A stretch of 64,000 nucleotides of DNA, from positions 65,440 through 129,439 of the IMG/VR virus record IMGVR_UViG_3300009506_000004. One strand, 5' to 3'. The notes under the pieces are model-generated. The model worked only from the letters and a program-made list of their open reading frames with translations. It searched no databases and was not told the origin of the DNA. The stretch comes from a virus. A program made the position numbers and the translations under genes. Each line of letters begins with the position of its first letter. Within the stretch, counting starts at the first letter, position 1. Of this stretch, positions 2,543 through 37,448 are shown in pieces.

Positions 2543-2616
2543 TCTAGATGGTAGGACTCGAACCTACGACCCCGTGTGCCCAGGACACGTGTTCTACCAA
2601 ACTGAACTACATCTAG
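2543..2616 (-). tRNA. tRNA-Pro(TGG)
   Basis: Cloverleaf CTAGATG..GTTC/GAAC..CGTGT-CCTGGGC-ACACG..GTAGG-TTCGAGT-CCTAC-CATCTAG; C at position 33. Confidence 0.85.
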
Positions 2617-2867
2617 CTTTCTAGTGATTCTTCTTTTCTTGCTAATCTTATATTAAATGCTGGTGATGAAATAATACCTCGTTTTACAATTAAAGTATCT
2701 GGGCTAGGAGTTTCTAATTTTGTAGCAACATCATCTATTTTTTGTGCTGCTACTGTTTTTGCTTCTTCATCAGATAAACCTAAATCACTAATAAAACTAA
2801 CAAGCACATATTCTTTACCATCATCAGTAGTTACCCAAATTTCATATGGTGTTAATGCTAATGTCAT
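2613..2867 (-). CDS. Hypothetical protein inside the tRNA cluster
   Basis: 84-aa ORF with an AGGAGA RBS. Confidence 0.6.
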   Translation of the reverse strand: MTLALTPYEIWVTTDDGKEYVLVSFISDLGLSDEEAKTVAAQKIDDVATKLETPSPDTLIVKRGIISSPAFNIRLARKEESLES

Positions 2868-2892
2868 ATTTTATATCTCCTATTGTAAATAA

Positions 2893-2961
2893 TGGCAGAG
2901 ACAGGAATTGAACCTGTAAATTCGGCTTATGAGACCGAATGGGATACCAATCCACTCTGCT
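2893..2961 (-). tRNA. tRNA with CAT anticodon (Met/fMet/Ile2 not resolved)
   Basis: TCGGT-CTCATAA-GCCGA anticodon arm, ACAGG-TTCAATT-CCTGT T-arm, GCAGAG/CTCTGC acceptor; short D-arm. Confidence 0.7.
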
Positions 2962-2966
2962 ACAAA

Positions 2967-3102
2967 AGGCGAGAGACAAACCAATACTTTATTATACATA
3001 TATCCTTAGGTCTTACTATAATGTTTGTTGGTCAAGCGATGACTATACAATACCAATAATTCGGACGTAAGTGTCAATTATTTATTGTGTTTTTGCCCGC
3101 CT
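2967..3102 (-). ncRNA. Candidate 136-nt structured RNA between two tRNAs
   Basis: Ends pair (AGGCGGG/CTCGCCT, CAATA/TATTG), internal hairpins present, 4-5 nt from the flanking tRNAs. Confidence 0.45.
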
Positions 3103-3106
3103 GTAA

Positions 3107-3179
3107 AGCCAGTGGTAGGACTTGAACCCACAACCAATCGGTTACAAACCGATTGCTCTGCCAATTGAGCTACACGGGC
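3107..3179 (-). tRNA. tRNA-Thr(TGT)
   Basis: GCCCGTG-TA-GCTC..GAGC-A-ATCGG-TTTGTAA-CCGAT..GTGGG-TTCAAGT-CCTAC-CACTGGC. Confidence 0.9.
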
Positions 3180-33022: not shown

Positions 33023-35325
33023 TTAACCGAGCAATAGAACGGCAAGGTTGTCGTCAAGGACAGCTGTTCCGCACAGCAAATCCAACACAACCTTAGTTCC
33101 ACCAGCATCGATATCATACTGCATAGTAGCGCGCATCGCAATGTCATTATAAGATGAAACAAAGGATCGAGCACCTTCAGACGCATCCGGTCGCGCTAAT
33201 GGTCGAGTGACCAACGCAAACGAATTACGATGAAATGCAACATTGAAATCACCAGCTGGGCCAGGGAAGGCACCATCGCCATCAGTTAACGCAAGATCAA
33301 GGGGTCGATCTAACAGAACCTTAACCTCAGTTGCACTAACTGTAATGGTTTCAATGACAGAATATGTATGACGTGTCGTAGGTGTTGTACCAAATGCAAT
33401 GAGCTGGCCAACTACAGGTGGTTTTCCAGATGTAAAACCATCAATACTAATATACTTAGCATAACCAGCAGAGTAGTTACCATTAACATCAGCCATCATA
33501 TAAACCGTGATAACAGCACCACTTTCAACATCATACTTAATAGCTTCGTTAAGTGTGGCAGCAGTTGTATCAGTTGTGTCATCAACTTCAGCTGTGATCC
33601 AAGTTGGCTGATCATTACCGGCCAGATTGGCAAATTCACCAACGTTACAAACATAATCTGTAACATCAAACGCTGTCAACGAACCAGTTGTACCCGCAGC
33701 AATAGCCGCAGTAGTAGCACCAAGAACTGTGTCACGCGAAGCAGTTGATAATACACCATTCACATTCTGGTCCATGAATGTGTCAAAACTACCAATACGG
33801 CCTAACAAAGCCTCTTCCAGCGCTGTTCCACCGTCACCACGTTTTTCTGAACTAACAAAAAGTTCAGTCTTTAGCATAGCTGTTTCGGACCCTGGAGCCA
33901 AAACTAACTTACGACCCGATGTATGGGCTAATGTTCGGTTTAACTTCTCTCGGGCTTCCAGCACAGTATCCCAAGCATTGCTGGATGTAAGATTAAGTAA
34001 CCGCCCAACACGATCTTCAGGGTCACCGATCAGCGCATGAGCCATACGACCGACTATAGCACGATCAATACCATTACCCATGGCTTTCATACCTGGGACT
34101 AAATGAACCTGAATAAGATCTTGCAAAGACTTCGACCGCTCACCATCCTTAATAACAAAACCAGCATACATATGCTGATTAAGTGGAACTTGTACGTTAG
34201 TAACAACAGCATCATTATACTCAGTTGTATCAGAATCTGTCTTTCGATACACCTTCATATCAGCTGGCTTACGTGTATTAACCACGTCACCATAATCTTT
34301 AACTTCCATCGAGAAATCCCGATGAACTAACATACCCATAATCATGTTCTCTTCGAGAACAGCAATAGACTCCCGTGCCCAAACTTCTGGGACAAGCATT
34401 TATGTTAACTATATATTTCTATATAGATCAGACTATATCTTCATCAACCAATTATAGCAAGATTGCAATTTATGTTTTGTAATTTCATTTTCTTGTTCTA
34501 GTATTGTATTACATTTTCTACATACAACACCTAATACTTTATTGTCTACGTGATGTATATAAGGTAATGTAAGAATATTATTACAACAATCACAATTTTT
34601 TGAATTTCTCAAAATTGATACTTGTTCAAATGTTAAATTATAAACATATGTTTTGACAAGTATTTTATAGCAATCTTTACATGTTGCATATAAACCATAT
34701 TTTCCACTTTGGTATTTTTGTTTATAGAAATTCTTCTTTGGTTTATATTGTTTGCAGCATTTGCATAATCGTTGAGTTGCGCGTGTAGTCGTTGAGGGGT
34801 CAGGTTCCTTTTGCTGACTTCCCTGCTGATTGACTCTATTGAATAGATTTTTACGATCTTTTTGTATAAATTCTAAACAGGACTTTATACGGTGTAAATC
34901 TTCTTTTGTTTCTTGTCCTAATGTTATATTACAATAATGACAAAGAATACCTTTAACCTTATGCTCAACATGATGAAGATTCTTTTTTAAATTTGTTAAA
35001 TCTTCACCACAACACATACATAAAGATTCTTTTCTAAAATTTATTACTTGTTCGCATGTAATACCAAGTCTATTAGCTGCTTTTTTAATAGACCAGCATT
35101 GTTTACAAATATTTCTATATTTTTTTGAATCTTTTCTAAAATGATATTCTTTAATAGATTTATTTTTTTTACATTTTGAACAAATTTTAAATATCGTACT
35201 ATTCACTTATCAAGTTGTTCCAGCATATAGCGCAATTCTTATTAGAAATCGCTTTCTAATAGGCCCATGTTCTAAGCGTCGTTATCATTGGCATAAGAAG
35301 CCAAAATTGTGTAAAAATAAAACAT
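33023..35325 (-). CDS. Major capsid protein (P22 coat/gp5-like, HK97 fold), spliced: exon 1 35275-35325, exon 2 33023-34396
   Basis: Exon 1 MFYFYTILASYANDNDA (GGGAG RBS) joins in frame to LVPEVWARES; GDVVNTRKP, NVAFHRNSFALVTRPLARP and LDLLCG are P22-coat-like motifs. Confidence 0.9.
34397..35274 (-). ncRNA. Group I intron (878 nt) in the major capsid gene
   Basis: 5' exon ends in U and the intron ends in G. P TATGCTGGAA (about 35218-35227), Q AATCAGCAGG (about 34822-34831), R TCAACGACTAC (34785-34795), S AAGATATAGTC (34431-34441). P3 TTGCGC/GCGCAA; P2 with a GCGA loop; P9 with a GAAA loop. Confidence 0.92.
34433..35206 (-). CDS. Intron-encoded homing endonuclease, two Zn-finger/endonuclease VII-like units
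   Basis: CxxC...HHV..KV.G..CxxCN..L twice, each preceded by CxxCK..K....(F/Y)..CKxC. Confidence 0.8.
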   Translation of the reverse strand: MNSTIFKICSKCKKNKSIKEYHFRKDSKKYRNICKQCWSIKKAANRLGITCEQVINFRKESLCMCCGEDLTNLKKNLHHVEHKVKGILCHYCNITLGQETKEDLHRIKSCLEFIQKDRKNLFNRVNQQGSQQKEPDPSTTTRATQRLCKCCKQYKPKKNFYKQKYQSGKYGLYATCKDCYKILVKTYVYNLTFEQVSILRNSKNCDCCNNILTLPYIHHVDNKVLGVVCRKCNTILEQENEITKHKLQSCYNWLMKI

Positions 35326-35393: not shown

Positions 35394-36254
35394 TTAACGT
35401 CTTTTATAATTCAAACCTAAAGCGGCTGGGTTCTCTTTTCTAAGTTTGAACCATTGTTCGTCTGTTAATCGTTTATGATCAACATTCCCAGACCCGATAT
35501 TACCACCATCGGTAGCGTTTTGGGAGCCAATACCTTCTCGAATATTATTCTTGAAGAAATTGCCCCATTGTGAAGGATTCTTTTTCATATACTCAACGGC
35601 TTCATCAGGCGTCATTTGAAGTCGTTCAGATACACCAGTATCCTCATTTTTAACTGTCATCGTGACCATAGGAATCAGTTGGCCAGTTGGCTGTCCTTTT
35701 GCATCTTTAGCTTCTACTAATTCTGTTTGACCACGTAATTGAACAATAATTTGCGAAGGATTAAAAGCCTCATGCTTAATAGCAGCAGATTGAAGTGCTT
35801 GGAAAATAGTAGATTCAGTATATCTATCTTCCCAAACTTTAGCTGCTTTTGTTGCTTCTTCTAATTGCTGCACATATTTATCTTCTTTTTGTTTATTATC
35901 GTAAGCAATCTGTTGTTCCTTTGTACGATGTCTAGCCTGAAGATCATCTAATTCCTTCTGTAATTTTTCTTTTTCTTCTTTACTAACATTTTGATTTCTC
36001 AAAAGTTCTTGATAACTAGTTTCTAATGAAGAATATTTATCTTGATGTTTTCTACGGTCTTCAGCTAAGAACTTATTGACATCATCTTGTGTGAATGTTT
36101 TACCAGAATCTGTTCCTTTACCAGAATCTGTTCCTTTACCAGAATCTGTTCCTTTACCAGAATCTGTTTCTTTACCAGAATCTATTCCATCACCAGAATC
36201 TGTTCCATCACCACTGCCTTCATAAGAAGCTAATATTTCATACCAAAATAACAT
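35394..36254 (-). CDS. Capsid scaffolding protein
   Basis: KTFTQDDVNKFLAEDRRK motif and coiled coil; upstream of the capsid gene; probable start MLFWY after a GGAGG RBS. Confidence 0.8.
   Translation of the reverse strand: MLFWYEILASYEGSGDGTDSGDGIDSGKETDSGKGTDSGKGTDSGKGTDSGKTFTQDDVNKFLAEDRRKHQDKYSSLETSYQELLRNQNVSKEEKEKLQKELDDLQARHRTKEQQIAYDNKQKEDKYVQQLEEATKAAKVWEDRYTESTIFQALQSAAIKHEAFNPSQIIVQLRGQTELVEAKDAKGQPTGQLIPMVTMTVKNEDTGVSERLQMTPDEAVEYMKKNPSQWGNFFKNNIREGIGSQNATDGGNIGSGNVDHKRLTDEQWFKLRKENPAALGLNYKRR
36101..36213 (-). repeat. 18-bp coding tandem repeat (GTDSGK)n
   Basis: ACCAGAATCTGTTCCTTT, about six degenerate copies. Confidence 0.85.
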
Positions 36255-36322
36255 AAATTCCTCCAATTGGAGTATAAATGACCCCACACTAAGAATTAGT
36301 TTAAGCGCGGTGGGTAATCGCT

Positions 36323-36856
36323 TTAAACTCTCATTAAACGAACGTGATCATCATCACGTAAAAATGGACGTAGATATTTCCAAGCTGTAGCAGATGGTAC
36401 ACCATTCATGAAATGTTCAAGTGGCTCTTGGTCCCTTGCAAAACTTGTCCTTACAGAACCAATTCCATGGTTTCTAATTGACATATTTTCCAATTCGATG
36501 TCTGGGTCTACGCCATCTAATAATGCATAAGCTATTTCATAACATGCCCATAGAATTCTTTCAGGAACTATAGTATCTGCACCACGTGGGAATTCAAGTT
36601 CCTGTGAAGCTTCAGCTGCTTGTATTTCATCACTTGTTGAATCTGGGTCATCTTGTAAAATTTCCCAGACAGTGTGTTTATAACCTTTAAAAGATAAACT
36701 ATCAATTATTCTTGTAGCAGCTAATAATGCTTTAGGTTTCTCAGTAGCACTAGCTTGACTCCAAGCAGTTTCATGAAGACGATCATTAAAATAAGATTCA
36801 GCTTGTTGTATAGTAGCATATGCTTCTGGCATAATTTCACCTAATGAGCACACCAA
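36323..36856 (-). CDS. Head-tail adaptor-like protein
   Basis: YAT...AESYF..RL...W...ALL.ATR.ID...Q.LEFPR pattern. Confidence 0.75.
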   Translation of the reverse strand: MVCSLGEIMPEAYATIQQAESYFNDRLHETAWSQASATEKPKALLAATRIIDSLSFKGYKHTVWEILQDDPDSTSDEIQAAEASQELEFPRGADTIVPERILWACYEIAYALLDGVDPDIELENMSIRNHGIGSVRTSFARDQEPLEHFMNGVPSATAWKYLRPFLRDDDHVRLMRV

Positions 36857-37140
36857 GAATAAGTTGTGCCACCTAAATTACACATTTGATAAATATCAGC
36901 CGGGTCATCAATTTCTAAAAAAATTTCGTCCCCAGCTTTTAATTGAAAACCAATAGTTGTACTATTTATATTTGATTTACCAACCCACATATCTTGGCTA
37001 CTATCTGTATTTTTTACTAATACCCCTTTATGTGCTTTTGCACTTTTAACATTGTCTAATTGCTGGGGAGTAGTTAAAGTAGTACCATTTCCAGATTGAA
37101 AAGAATTGCTAAATTTTATCGTTTCATTAAAAGAAGACAT
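36841..37140 (-). CDS. Small beta-sandwich virion protein, paralog A
   Basis: MSSFNETIK...VKNT..MWVG...GFQL; paralog of 37149..37448. Confidence 0.65.
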   Translation of the reverse strand: MSSFNETIKFSNSFQSGNGTTLTTPQQLDNVKSAKAHKGVLVKNTDSSQDMWVGKSNINSTTIGFQLKAGDEIFLEIDDPADIYQMCNLGGTTYSWCAH

Positions 37141-37148
37141 TTTTCACC

Positions 37149-37448
37149 TTAATAAGCCAGCCAAGTATAAGTTGTACTTAATGCAGAACCAATTACATAA
37201 ACATTTGCTGGATTATCTATTTGAAGTTCTACTTGTTCATTAGCTCCAAGTTCTAAACCAAAACTAGACGATACATTAGCTTTTCCAACATAAAGTTTAT
37301 TAGTAGCATGAGTATTTTTTATTACTAATTCTTTGTGTATTTTTGCATCGCGTACACTATCAAGTTTTTCAGCTGTTGCATTTCCAACTGATCCCATTCC
37401 ACATTGAAATGAATCAGTCATTTTAATTGTTTCATTGAAAGATGACAT
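37149..37448 (-). CDS. Small beta-sandwich virion protein, paralog B
   Basis: Same length (99 aa) and motifs as 36841..37140. Confidence 0.65.
   Translation of the reverse strand: MSSFNETIKMTDSFQCGMGSVGNATAEKLDSVRDAKIHKELVIKNTHATNKLYVGKANVSSSFGLELGANEQVELQIDNPANVYVIGSALSTTYTWLAY

What the first reader, a model, noticed from the sequence alone, without database searches (positions are those of the whole stretch)
34397..35274. Group I intron whose endonuclease ORF reads straight through the ribozyme core
The 257-aa ORF has two endonuclease VII-like units. The first lies between core elements P and Q, the second between R/P3' and S. The linker VNQQGSQQKEPDPSTTTRAT is the Q-R-P3' catalytic core read in frame, and the stop codon lies inside S. 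The core is therefore dual-coding, and two loop insertions are fused into one protein. Established: intron ORFs usually occupy a single peripheral loop. Inference: translation and splicing compete, which could gate capsid production.
Basis: partly seen in the sequence, partly recalled or inferred. Interest (0 to 1): 0.78.

Follow-up and report, generated by a model that had tools for sequence, protein, structure and literature searches.

The report
Capsid intron with threaded two-unit endonuclease
A phage's main capsid gene is split by a self-splicing-type intron whose single DNA-cutting-enzyme gene sits in two separate RNA loops and is read straight through the ribozyme's catalytic core, an extreme form of a known but uncommon overlap.

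Summary
Window 35274-34397 (minus strand, 878 nt) is a group I intron in a P22-type major capsid gene.

The 257-aa ORF (35206-34433) holds two homologous zinc-ribbon plus endonuclease-VII-like HNH units (35% identical, E 1e-15). Unit 1 fills the loop of a P5 extension and unit 2 the P8 loop. Codons 118-146 are P5b'-P5a'-P5'-P4'-P6-P7-P3'-P8 read in frame, and the stop codon lies in the P7 3' strand.

In 15 related introns, 97.1% of 821 pair cells form pairs, and 37 of 55 pairs change on both sides. Rfam aligns a sister intron end to end at 84.9 bits, with insertions in P5 and P8, and an ORF-less sister at 71.4 bits.

ORFs that read through core helices are already in print ('core creep'; a Synechococcus L1917 ORF runs P6-P7-P3-P8-P9). 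I found no description of two complete nuclease units joined by the core. Earlier notes of this scan report the same threaded layout on other DNA.

Splicing, cleavage and any gating of capsid production remain untested. Verdict: new variant of a known kind, interest 0.6.

The parts
35275..35325 (-). Major capsid gene exon 1 (17 codons, ATG at 35325)
   Evidence: its peptide matches the uninterrupted N-termini of 33 of 36 related capsid loci
34397..35274 (-). Group I intron, 878 nt. It begins with an in-frame TAG and ends in a G (34397)
33023..34396 (-). Major capsid gene exon 2 (457 codons plus stop), P22 coat family
   Evidence: (PF11651, E 4.1e-26)
34433..35206 (-). Intron ORF, 257 aa counted from the GTG at 35206; two-unit HNH / endonuclease-VII-like protein
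35262..35278 (-). P1: last four exon bases (35278-35275) with the guide sequence (35265-35262); U-G wobble at the splice site
   Evidence: (the U-G pair is present in 15 of 15; the guide covaries with the exon between insertion sites)
35242..35259 (-). P2 hairpin
   Evidence: (7 of 7 pairs change on both sides)
35195..35235 (-). 5' strands of P3 (35235-35230), P4 (35225-35220), P5 (35215-35212), P5a (35204-35199) and P5b (35198-35195). P5a is where sister introns carry the ORF's Shine-Dalgarno-like stretch
34856..35194 (-). Nuclease unit 1 (codons 5-117), which fills the P5b loop
34777..34855 (-). Central ribozyme core read in frame as the protein linker (codons 118-144): 3' strands of P5b, P5a, P5 and P4, the P6 hairpin (34824-34795), the P7 5' strand (34790-34786) and the P3 3' strand (34782-34777)
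   Evidence: third codon positions are as conserved as first and second; residues 126-141 have pLDDT below 50
34444..34775 (-). P8 (5' strand 34775-34757, 3' strand 34466-34444) enclosing nuclease unit 2 (codons 147-254)
34431..34435 (-). P7 3' strand ('S'), which contains the ORF's TAG stop (34435-34433)
34409..34426 (-). P9 hairpin. The P9.1 and P9.2 hairpins of the sister introns are missing here

Best explanation
The feature is a mobile-type group I intron inserted after codon 17 of the phage's only P22-type major capsid gene.

Its ribozyme has the usual P1-P9 helices, but two of its hairpin loops each hold one copy of a roughly 113-residue module made of a zinc ribbon and an HNH (endonuclease-VII-like) domain. 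The loops are the tip of a P5 extension (P5b) and P8. One reading frame starts beside P5b. It runs through unit 1 and leaves the loop through the 3' strands of P5b, P5a, P5 and P4. It then continues through P6, the P7 5' strand, the P3 3' strand and the P8 5' strand, runs through unit 2, and stops in the P7 3' strand. About 86 nt of catalytic core therefore also encode the flexible linker of a two-domain nuclease.

Shown here: the exon junction, the helices with covariation, the homology of the two units, selection on both as protein, and RNA-type constraint on the linker codons.

Inferred:
1. The intron self-splices, so that capsid protein can be made.
2. The protein is a homing endonuclease whose two HNH centres cut the two strands of intron-less capsid alleles. 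It would act as a single-chain counterpart of a dimer.
3. In the folded ribozyme the ribosome-binding stretch (in P5a) is paired, and a ribosome crossing the core unfolds P4-P6, P3 and P7. Translation and splicing of any one RNA would then exclude each other.
4. The layout arose when like introns carrying the unit in different loops recombined in their shared core, followed by read-through ('core creep').

The confidence given (0.85) is for the anatomy: a group I intron with a two-unit ORF threaded through its core. The four inferred steps are each less certain.
For: Junction: 33 of 36 related capsid loci are contiguous across it; 2 are interrupted and 1 is too distant to judge.

Rfam RF00028: the window gives only a local 28.1-bit hit to J8/7-P7'-P9. 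The sister intron in L052 is aligned over all 253 model positions at 84.9 bits (cut-off 50), with the two long insertions in the P5 and P8 loops. An ORF-less sister (L050:2891-3176) scores 71.4 bits.

Covariation in 15 aligned introns (14 with ORF, 1 without): 97.1% of 821 cells are paired, against 78.3% in shuffles (0 of 500 reached it) and 32-41% when partners are slid. 37 of 55 pairs change on both sides. Among the helices that span the insertions, this holds for 5 of 6 pairs in P3, 4 of 6 in P5a and 3 of 5 in P7.

P6 folds in 15 of 15 introns. A P8 duplex closes unit 2 in 15 of 15; it is more stable than the shuffled mean in 14 of 15, by under one shuffle s.d. in three of those.

The window's intron, with the two loops cut out, folds unconstrained into P1, P2, P3, P4, P5, P5a, P5b, P6, P8 and P9 at the comparative coordinates (z -3.4).

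Unit 1 against unit 2: 35% identity over 113 residues, E 1e-15.

The protein family has 65 members. 60 of 65 match Pfam Endonuclease_7. The His-His, Asn and Cys residues of both units are at least 90% conserved.

Codon positions: in the units, third positions are less conserved (0.58-0.59) than first and second positions (0.69-0.76). In the core segments they are as conserved (0.87).

AlphaFold2: mean pLDDT 92.1, pTM 0.81, with only residues 126-141 below 50.

The distribution is sporadic, with five insertion sites within about 40 codons and guide sequences that match each site.
Against: The window's own intron does not reach Rfam's cut-off (28.1 bits against 50).

It lacks the P9.1 and P9.2 hairpins of its relatives, and P1 has only three exon pairs plus a C-C mismatch.

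At the position where six sister introns have ATG, the window has ATA. Its P5a strand is not Shine-Dalgarno-like, and the in-frame GTG 12 nt upstream has no evident ribosome-binding site. The endonuclease may therefore be poorly expressed or on its way to decay here.

The window's ORF scores 20.8 bits against the Pfam Endonuclease_7 cut-off of 23.6.

Fold matches are weak: Hpy99I at Z 4.9, and T4 endonuclease VII at Z 3.6, rmsd 4.3 over 72 residues.

No splicing, cleavage or expression data exist.

A related two-unit protein stands free, without any ribozyme, in L053. The direction of evolution is therefore open.
Confidence: 0.85

Rival explanations
1. The ribozyme is intact but the endonuclease gene is silent or decaying in this phage. 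The frame is still open only because too little time has passed, and the core overlap has no present regulatory role.
For: ATA stands where the sister introns have the ATG. The Shine-Dalgarno-like stretch in P5a is degenerate. The only in-frame start is a GTG without a clear ribosome-binding site. The peripheral P9.1 and P9.2 hairpins are deleted.
Against: All 257 codons are open. In this copy every residue that is at least 90% conserved across the 65-member family is present. The family as a whole shows protein-type selection in both units.
Confidence: 0.2
2. The intron no longer splices. Capsid protein is made from the AUG formed by the last three intron bases (34399-34397), which is in frame with exon 2, and so lacks the first 17 residues.
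For: All three introns at this exact site (window, L007, L049) end in ATG in frame with exon 2. The window's Rfam score is low.
Against: Every core helix of the window's copy is fully paired. The 17-residue leader is conserved in 33 of 36 relatives. No ribosome-binding stretch precedes that AUG.
Confidence: 0.05
3. The P/Q/R/S-like words in the linker are chance matches. The whole ORF would then lie in one loop of a differently folded intron, or the ORF would be a free-standing gene between two capsid gene pieces.
For: Rfam finds only the last 33 nt in the window itself.
Against: Compensatory changes occur in P3, P4, P5, P5a and P7 across 15 introns. Rfam's end-to-end alignment of L052 places its insertions in the P5 and P8 loops. 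An ORF-less sister has the same core. Third codon positions in the linker are RNA-constrained.
Confidence: 0.02

Closest known systems
Synechococcus sp. C9 / S. lividus 23S rRNA group I introns with LAGLIDADG ORFs (Haugen et al. 2007, PMC1995217, passage read; Table 1 of Edgell et al. 2011, PMC3073962, read)
   Same: The ORF leaves a peripheral loop and is read through core helices. The L1917 ORF starts in P6, passes P7, P3 and P8, and stops in P9; an 81-nt overlap is listed for the S. lividus LSU intron. The authors point out the double constraint on these nucleotides.
   Different: That case is a single-motif LAGLIDADG enzyme in a bacterial rRNA gene. The overlap is described there as an extension from a loop, not as two complete, mutually homologous nuclease units in two loops. 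Here the loops are P5b and P8, the enzyme is a tandem HNH, and the P4-P6 3' side is also translated.
Phage T4 td intron with I-TevI, and the 'core creep' idea (Edgell, Chalamcharla and Belfort 2011, PMC3073962, passages read)
   Same: Both are phage group I introns in a protein gene, with an in-frame stop at the intron start. The ORF end contributes to P7, and the ribosome-binding site is sequestered in RNA structure. In both, endonuclease translation has to be kept from disturbing folding.
   Different: I-TevI (GIY-YIG) lies in one loop (P6) and overlaps the core by only 20 nt at its 3' end. Here about 86 nt of core lie inside the ORF, plus the P8'-J8/7-P7' end.
Bacillus phage SPO1 DNA polymerase intron with I-HmuI (Table 1 of PMC3073962, read)
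   Same: Both have an HNH endonuclease in the P8 loop of a phage group I intron.
   Different: I-HmuI is a single HNH unit with a 9-nt overlap with P8 only. That I-HmuI is a nicking enzyme is my recollection, not something I read here.
Capsid-gene introns of Cluster J mycobacteriophages (Pope et al. 2013, PMC3706429; search listing and start of abstract only)
   Same: A phage capsid gene interrupted by a spliced intron.
   Different: I did not read the details. I saw no indication of a threaded two-unit ORF.
Double-motif LAGLIDADG enzymes derived from single-motif homodimers (PMC8393795, passage read)
   Same: Two homologous nuclease units in one chain, allowing monomeric action on non-palindromic sites. 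This is the analogy I propose for the tandem HNH.
   Different: It is a different fold, and those two motifs are not described as separated by ribozyme core.

Membership tests
Group I intron (Rfam RF00028) | Score at or above the curated gathering cut-off (50 bits) | tested here: not met
   The window gives a local 28.1-bit hit only. Sister introns reach it: L052 at 84.9 bits and the ORF-less L050:2891-3176 at 71.4 bits. The other 8 hits (7 ORF-bearing introns) score 26.7-44.7 bits. L007, L043 and L049 give no hit at E<=0.01.
Group I intron | 5' splice site after a U that forms a U-G wobble in P1 with an internal guide sequence | tested here: met
   The U-G pair is present in 15 of 15 introns. 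The guide changes with the exon between insertion sites. In the window: 35275 with 35265.
Group I intron | Terminal G at the 3' splice site | tested here: met
   G at 34397. All 15 aligned introns end in G at the boundary fixed by the exon reading frame.
Group I intron | P3-P8 and P4-P6 domains with the P3/P7 pseudoknot, supported by covariation | tested here: met
   pairs with changes on both sides number 5 of 6 in P3, 2 of 6 in P4, 3 of 4 in P5 and 3 of 5 in P7. P6 and P8 were checked per sequence. The window's own fold recovers them.
Group I intron | GTP-dependent self-splicing | not testable with these tools
   No RNA run holds the region.
HNH / His-Me finger, endonuclease VII family (Pfam PF02945) | Score at or above the Pfam gathering cut-off | tested here: not met
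   The window's ORF scores 20.8 bits against a cut-off of 23.6. 60 of 65 family members match at E<=0.01, with the best at 3.9e-10.
HNH / His-Me finger | His-His, Asn and four-Cys zinc site in a beta-beta-alpha fold | tested here: inconclusive
   The residues are at least 90% conserved in both units. The AF2 model is confident. Fold matches are weak: Hpy99I at Z 4.9, rmsd 2.7 over 47 residues; T4 endonuclease VII at Z 3.6, rmsd 4.3 over 72 residues.
Homing endonuclease | Cleaves the intron-less allele near the insertion site and drives intron gain | not testable with these tools
   The only support is indirect: sporadic presence (2 of 36 loci) and five insertion sites.
'Core creep' ORF-ribozyme overlap (Edgell et al. 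2011) | The ORF contributes nucleotides to core helices, and the ends of the overlap vary between lineages | tested here: met
   One search gives the overlap. The stop position varies: the P7 3' strand in the window and L007, and P9 or nearly the 3' splice site in L034, L040 and L045.

The most novel reading that the evidence does not exclude
The ribozyme core is an obligatory, co-evolving inter-domain linker of a single-chain, two-active-site HNH homing enzyme. The enzyme was built by recombination between sister introns that carried the same nuclease module in different loops. Because the ribosome must unfold P4-P6, P3 and P7 to make the enzyme, and the folded ribozyme hides the ribosome-binding site, each capsid pre-mRNA makes either endonuclease or, after splicing, capsid at any one moment. 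The element thereby sets the timing or yield of capsid protein.
Probability: 0.25. Interest if true: 0.75.

Novelty: new variant of a known kind. Interest (0 to 1): 0.6.

Why it matters
Textbook mobile group I introns keep their endonuclease gene in one peripheral loop, so that protein and ribozyme evolve almost independently. Here about a tenth of the intron, including the strands that build the catalytic site, must satisfy RNA pairing and an open reading frame at once.

The family offers a natural series for studying how such double constraint evolves: at least 14 ORF-bearing introns at five sites of one capsid gene, an ORF-less sister, a free-standing sister gene, and 65 proteins.

It also offers a candidate single-chain double-HNH nuclease, which could be of use as a non-palindromic cutter.

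It is a tractable case for asking whether translation of an intron gene and splicing of an essential late gene interfere with each other.

For annotation, it shows that standard covariance-model scans miss such introns (28 bits here) and that gene callers truncate the capsid gene.

Tried and rejected
Rfam and similarity searches
- Rfam at gathering threshold on the whole window found only three tRNAs. On the 1.1-kb region it found only the 33-nt 3' core.
- blastn of the region and of the ORF-less sister against 50,697 phage records gave only matches of 82 nt or less, mainly to the J8/7-P7'-P9 region, shared with many phage introns. There is no close characterised relative.
- tblastn of the capsid protein against those records gave only relatives at 30% identity or less.
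- The ORF occurs once in its own 129-kb genome, and no second RF00028 hit is there.

Looking for a single-unit ancestor
- I asked whether one-unit HNH relatives sit in one loop of a like intron.
- A motif scan of 75 metagenome loci found no ordered core.
- Rfam on 40 of those 75 loci (L054-L093) gave two group I introns of other kinds: L069, and L074. In L074 a one-unit ORF reads from upstream through P3, P4 and P5 and stops in P6 of an intron in a uracil-DNA-glycosylase-like gene.
- No direct ancestor was found. The other 35 loci were not scanned with Rfam.

Expression and splicing
- No RNA holder was listed.
- Laying contigs of four DNA runs showed no contig bridging the intron and no intron-less joint.
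- Neither result is evidence for or against splicing.

Structure
- Foldseek against PDB gave no match at E<=0.001.
- VIA-align gave only Z 4.9 or less to nucleases.

Literature
- Seven searches, with passages of PMC3073962, PMC3984707, PMC1995217, PMC8393795 and PMC11835236, found core overlap but no two-unit, two-loop ORF.
A table there could list such a case.
- Two papers are recalled only, not seen: Gibb and Edgell 2010 (I-TevI translation against splicing) and Robbins et al. 2007 (I-TevIII dimer).

Left out
- L044 and L048 were left out of the alignment because the contig end cuts their 5' part.
- Complex prediction, the protein atlas and the representative-protein search were not used.
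Full report
What is there

The window is the second half of a complete 129,439-bp virus record with terminal repeats. On the minus strand, downstream of a scaffold-like gene (35394-36287), lies a P22-type coat protein gene (PF11651, E 4.1e-26). Its long ORF (34399-33023) lacks the conserved N-terminus of its relatives. A 17-codon piece (35325-35275) lies 878 nt upstream.

I fetched 36 related capsid loci from IMG/VR. In 33 of them the homologous 17-odd residues run straight into the residues that open exon 2 here. Two loci (L007, L034) are interrupted, and one (L038, 27% identity) is too distant to judge. The 5' splice site follows the U at 35275, the intron is 35274-34397, and its last base is a G.

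Is it a group I intron?

Rfam's RF00028 model does not find it at the curated threshold. With lax filters it matches only 34443-34411, which is the J8/7-P7'-P9 part, at 28.1 bits against a cut-off of 50. The case therefore rests on relatives.

The protein of the intron ORF has 65 relatives in the large protein collection, and none of them is named. DNA for 13 further complete introns with such an ORF was recovered from viral and metagenome contigs, together with two introns cut by contig ends. All of them interrupt the same capsid family, within its first 40 or so codons, at five sites:
- After the 17th codon: window, L007, L049.
- Two bases further on: L043, L050.
- After the Trp-Ala a few codons on: L052, and a second intron in L050.
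- After Glu-Gly-Leu: L051.
- After Glu-Glu-Asn-Met-Val/Ile: L034, L040, L045, L046, L047, the second introns of L043 and L051, and the truncated L044 and L048.

The second intron of L050 (2891-3176, 286 nt) has no ORF at all.

Run on these loci, Rfam aligns the ORF-bearing intron of L052 over all 253 model positions at 84.9 bits. It places two long insertions at model positions 80/81 (P5 loop) and 208/209 (P8 loop). It scores the ORF-less intron at 71.4 bits. The other 8 hits, from 7 ORF-bearing introns, score 26.7-44.7 bits, some aligned only in part. L007, L043 and L049 gave no hit at E<=0.01.

Covariation

I aligned 15 introns with 10-nt exon flanks. I wrote down P1, P2, P3, P4, P5, two further helices of the P5 arm (P5a, P5b), P7, P9 and P9.1 as column pairs. 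The count gave these results:
- 97.1% of 821 cells form standard pairs. Shuffles gave 78.3% (0 of 500 reached the observed value). Sliding the partners by 1-3 columns gave 32-41%.
- 37 of 55 pairs show changes on both sides.
- The covariation score is 0.599, against 0.194 in shuffles and 0.076-0.099 when slid.

They are well supported:
- P3: 5 of 6 pairs with double changes, 100% paired.
- P4: 2 of 6.
- P5: 3 of 4.
- P5a: 4 of 6.
- P7: 3 of 5.

P1 keeps its U-G wobble in 15 of 15, and the guide changes with the exon between sites.

P6 and P8 vary in length and were not aligned by column, so I checked them per sequence. P6 folds as a hairpin in 15 of 15. A P8 duplex joins the bases right after P3' to those right before J8/7 in 15 of 15. 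It is more stable than the shuffled mean in 14 of 15 (L051b is not), and in L034, L046 and L043b by less than one shuffle s.d..

I also cut the two loops out of the window's own intron by coordinates and folded it without constraints. It gives P1, P2, P3, P4, P5, P5a, P5b, P6, P8 and P9 at exactly the comparative positions (-68.4 kcal/mol, z -3.4). P7 is a pseudoknot and cannot appear in such a fold.

How the ORF lies in the ribozyme

- The 5' strands of P3 (35235-35230), P4 (35225-35220), P5 (35215-35212), P5a (35204-35199) and P5b (35198-35195) precede or just overlap the start of the ORF.
- Unit 1 (codons 5-117, 35194-34856) fills the P5b loop.
- Codon 118 opens the P5b 3' strand (34855-34852).
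- Then come the P5a 3' strand (34846-34841), the P5 3' strand (34836-34833) and the P4 3' strand, the classical Q element (34829-34824, codons 126-128).
- The P6 hairpin follows (34824-34795).
- The P7 5' strand, or R (34790-34786), falls in codons 139-141.
- The P3 3' strand (34782-34777) falls in codons 142-144.
- The P8 5' strand begins at 34775.
- Unit 2 (codons 147-254) fills P8.
- The P8 3' strand, J8/7 and the first bases of the P7 3' strand (34435-34431) encode the last residues and hold the TAG stop.

One refinement: 'between P and Q' means the tip of a three-helix P5 arm.

Is it a real protein, and are the linker codons RNA-constrained?

- The two units are 35% identical over 113 residues (E 1e-15).
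- 60 of 65 family members match Pfam Endonuclease_7 at E<=0.01. The window's own score is 20.8 bits, just under the 23.6 cut-off.
- In both units the four-Cys ribbon, the Cys pairs, the His-His and the Asn are at least 90% conserved.
- Across the 14 ORF-bearing introns, third codon positions are less conserved than first and second positions in unit 1 (0.58 against 0.69 and 0.76) and in unit 2 (0.59 against 0.70 and 0.73). This is the mark of selection on protein.
- In the P5b'-P4' segment (0.87 against 0.89 and 0.93) and in the J6/7-P7-P3' segment (0.87 against 0.80 and 0.71), third positions are as conserved as the others. This is the mark of selection on RNA.
- AlphaFold2 with the 65-sequence alignment gives two confident domains (mean pLDDT 92.1, pTM 0.81). 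The only stretch below 50 is residues 126-141, which are the P4'-P6-P7 codons.
- Fold searches give only weak matches to beta-beta-alpha-metal nucleases: Hpy99I at Foldseek E 0.056 and Z 4.9; T4 endonuclease VII at Z 3.6, rmsd 4.3 over 72 residues.

Mechanism, and what is inferred

All 15 aligned introns have an in-frame stop within the first three codons after the 5' splice site (read). Ribosomes coming from exon 1 therefore do not enter the ribozyme.

In the sister introns a purine-rich, Shine-Dalgarno-like stretch forms the 5' strand of P5a, and the start codon follows P5b directly. In the folded ribozyme both are paired or flanked by helices. A ribosome that does start must melt the 3' strands of the whole P4-P6 domain, P7 and P3. 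Mutual exclusion of translation and splicing on one RNA is thus a reasonable inference. It is in line with what the reviews say of overlapping ORFs (PMC3984707 and PMC3073962, passages read). Nothing here tests it, and 'gating capsid production' is a further step.

In this window the usual ATG is ATA, the P5a strand is not purine-rich, and the only canonical in-frame start is a GTG 12 nt upstream. P9.1 and P9.2 are also missing. The ribozyme core is intact, but the endonuclease may be weakly expressed here.

That both HNH centres are conserved suggests a single chain that cuts both strands. This is an analogy with double-motif LAGLIDADG enzymes (PMC8393795, passage read) and has not been tested.

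Origin

One-unit relatives of about 115 residues are common in the metagenome scan. Among the 40 of 75 such loci scanned with Rfam, I found none in one loop of a like intron. Two other kinds of intron turned up.

A two-unit relative stands as a free gene near the terminase gene of a related phage, and its linker shows no core (L053).

Several capsid genes carry two of these introns only about 60 nt apart, with near-identical cores (L043, L050, L051). Recombination in the core between introns that hold the unit in different loops, followed by read-through, is therefore a plausible route. It is an inference.

Comparison with what is known

ORF-core overlap is established. Edgell, Chalamcharla and Belfort 2011 call it 'core creep' and tabulate overlaps of 9-81 nt (PMC3073962, passages and Table 1 read). 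Haugen et al. 2007 describe an ORF that starts in P6, passes P7, P3 and P8 and stops in P9, and call this uncommon (PMC1995217, passage read).

I did not find two complete, homologous nuclease units in two different loops joined by the core. I searched seven times and read passages of five papers. Supplements were closed.

Earlier notes of this scan report the same threaded idea on other DNA: LAGLIDADG domains in L6 and L8 of capsid introns, HNH genes in tRNA introns, and a two-insertion ORF with its start locked in P5 in a tail-tube gene. Those are unchecked AI notes. They suggest the layout is recurrent in phage introns rather than unique to this window.

Verdict

The regulatory reading is untested. 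The feature is a new variant of a known kind. Interest is 0.6.

Noticed in passing
L050:2891-3176: An ORF-less 286-nt sister intron (RF00028 71.4 bits) lies only about 20 nt downstream of an ORF-bearing one in the same capsid gene. L043 and L051 also carry two introns of this family about 60 nt apart.
   Followed up: partly
L053:951-1703: A two-unit HNH relative (250 aa) stands as a free gene between a peptidase-like gene and small genes upstream of a terminase like the window's. Its linker shows no ribozyme core, and Rfam finds no intron there.
   Followed up: partly
L074:1-840: A different group I intron (RF00028 83.3 bits) lies in front of a uracil-DNA-glycosylase-like ORF. A one-unit endonuclease-VII-like ORF reads from upstream through P3, P4 and P5 and stops in P6.
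   Followed up: partly
window 34397-34399; also L007 and L049 3' splice sites: All three introns at this exact site end in ATG, in frame with exon 2. Unspliced RNA could therefore in principle give a capsid protein lacking the 17-residue leader. No ribosome-binding stretch is evident.
   Followed up: no
window 2543-3179 (minus): Three tRNA genes (Rfam 64.9, 61.9 and 38.3 bits).
   Followed up: no
window 36841-37140 and 37149-37448 (minus): Two adjacent 99-aa ORFs that both begin with the same nine residues look like a tandem duplication, just upstream of the head genes.
   Followed up: no
window 36076-36256: The scaffold-like gene (35394-36287) has a run of short Asp/Ser/Gly/Lys/Thr-rich peptide repeats near its N-terminus.
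   Followed up: no
window 34518-34668 and 34702-34852: Two 151-nt contigs of a soil metagenome run from a different study (X3) are identical to these parts of the intron ORF and core. The cover is very low.
   Followed up: no
P0056: In one database protein the gene caller fused capsid exon 1, up to the Trp-Ala site, in frame with the intron and its nuclease ORF. Such introns cause mis-annotated chimeric proteins.
   Followed up: no
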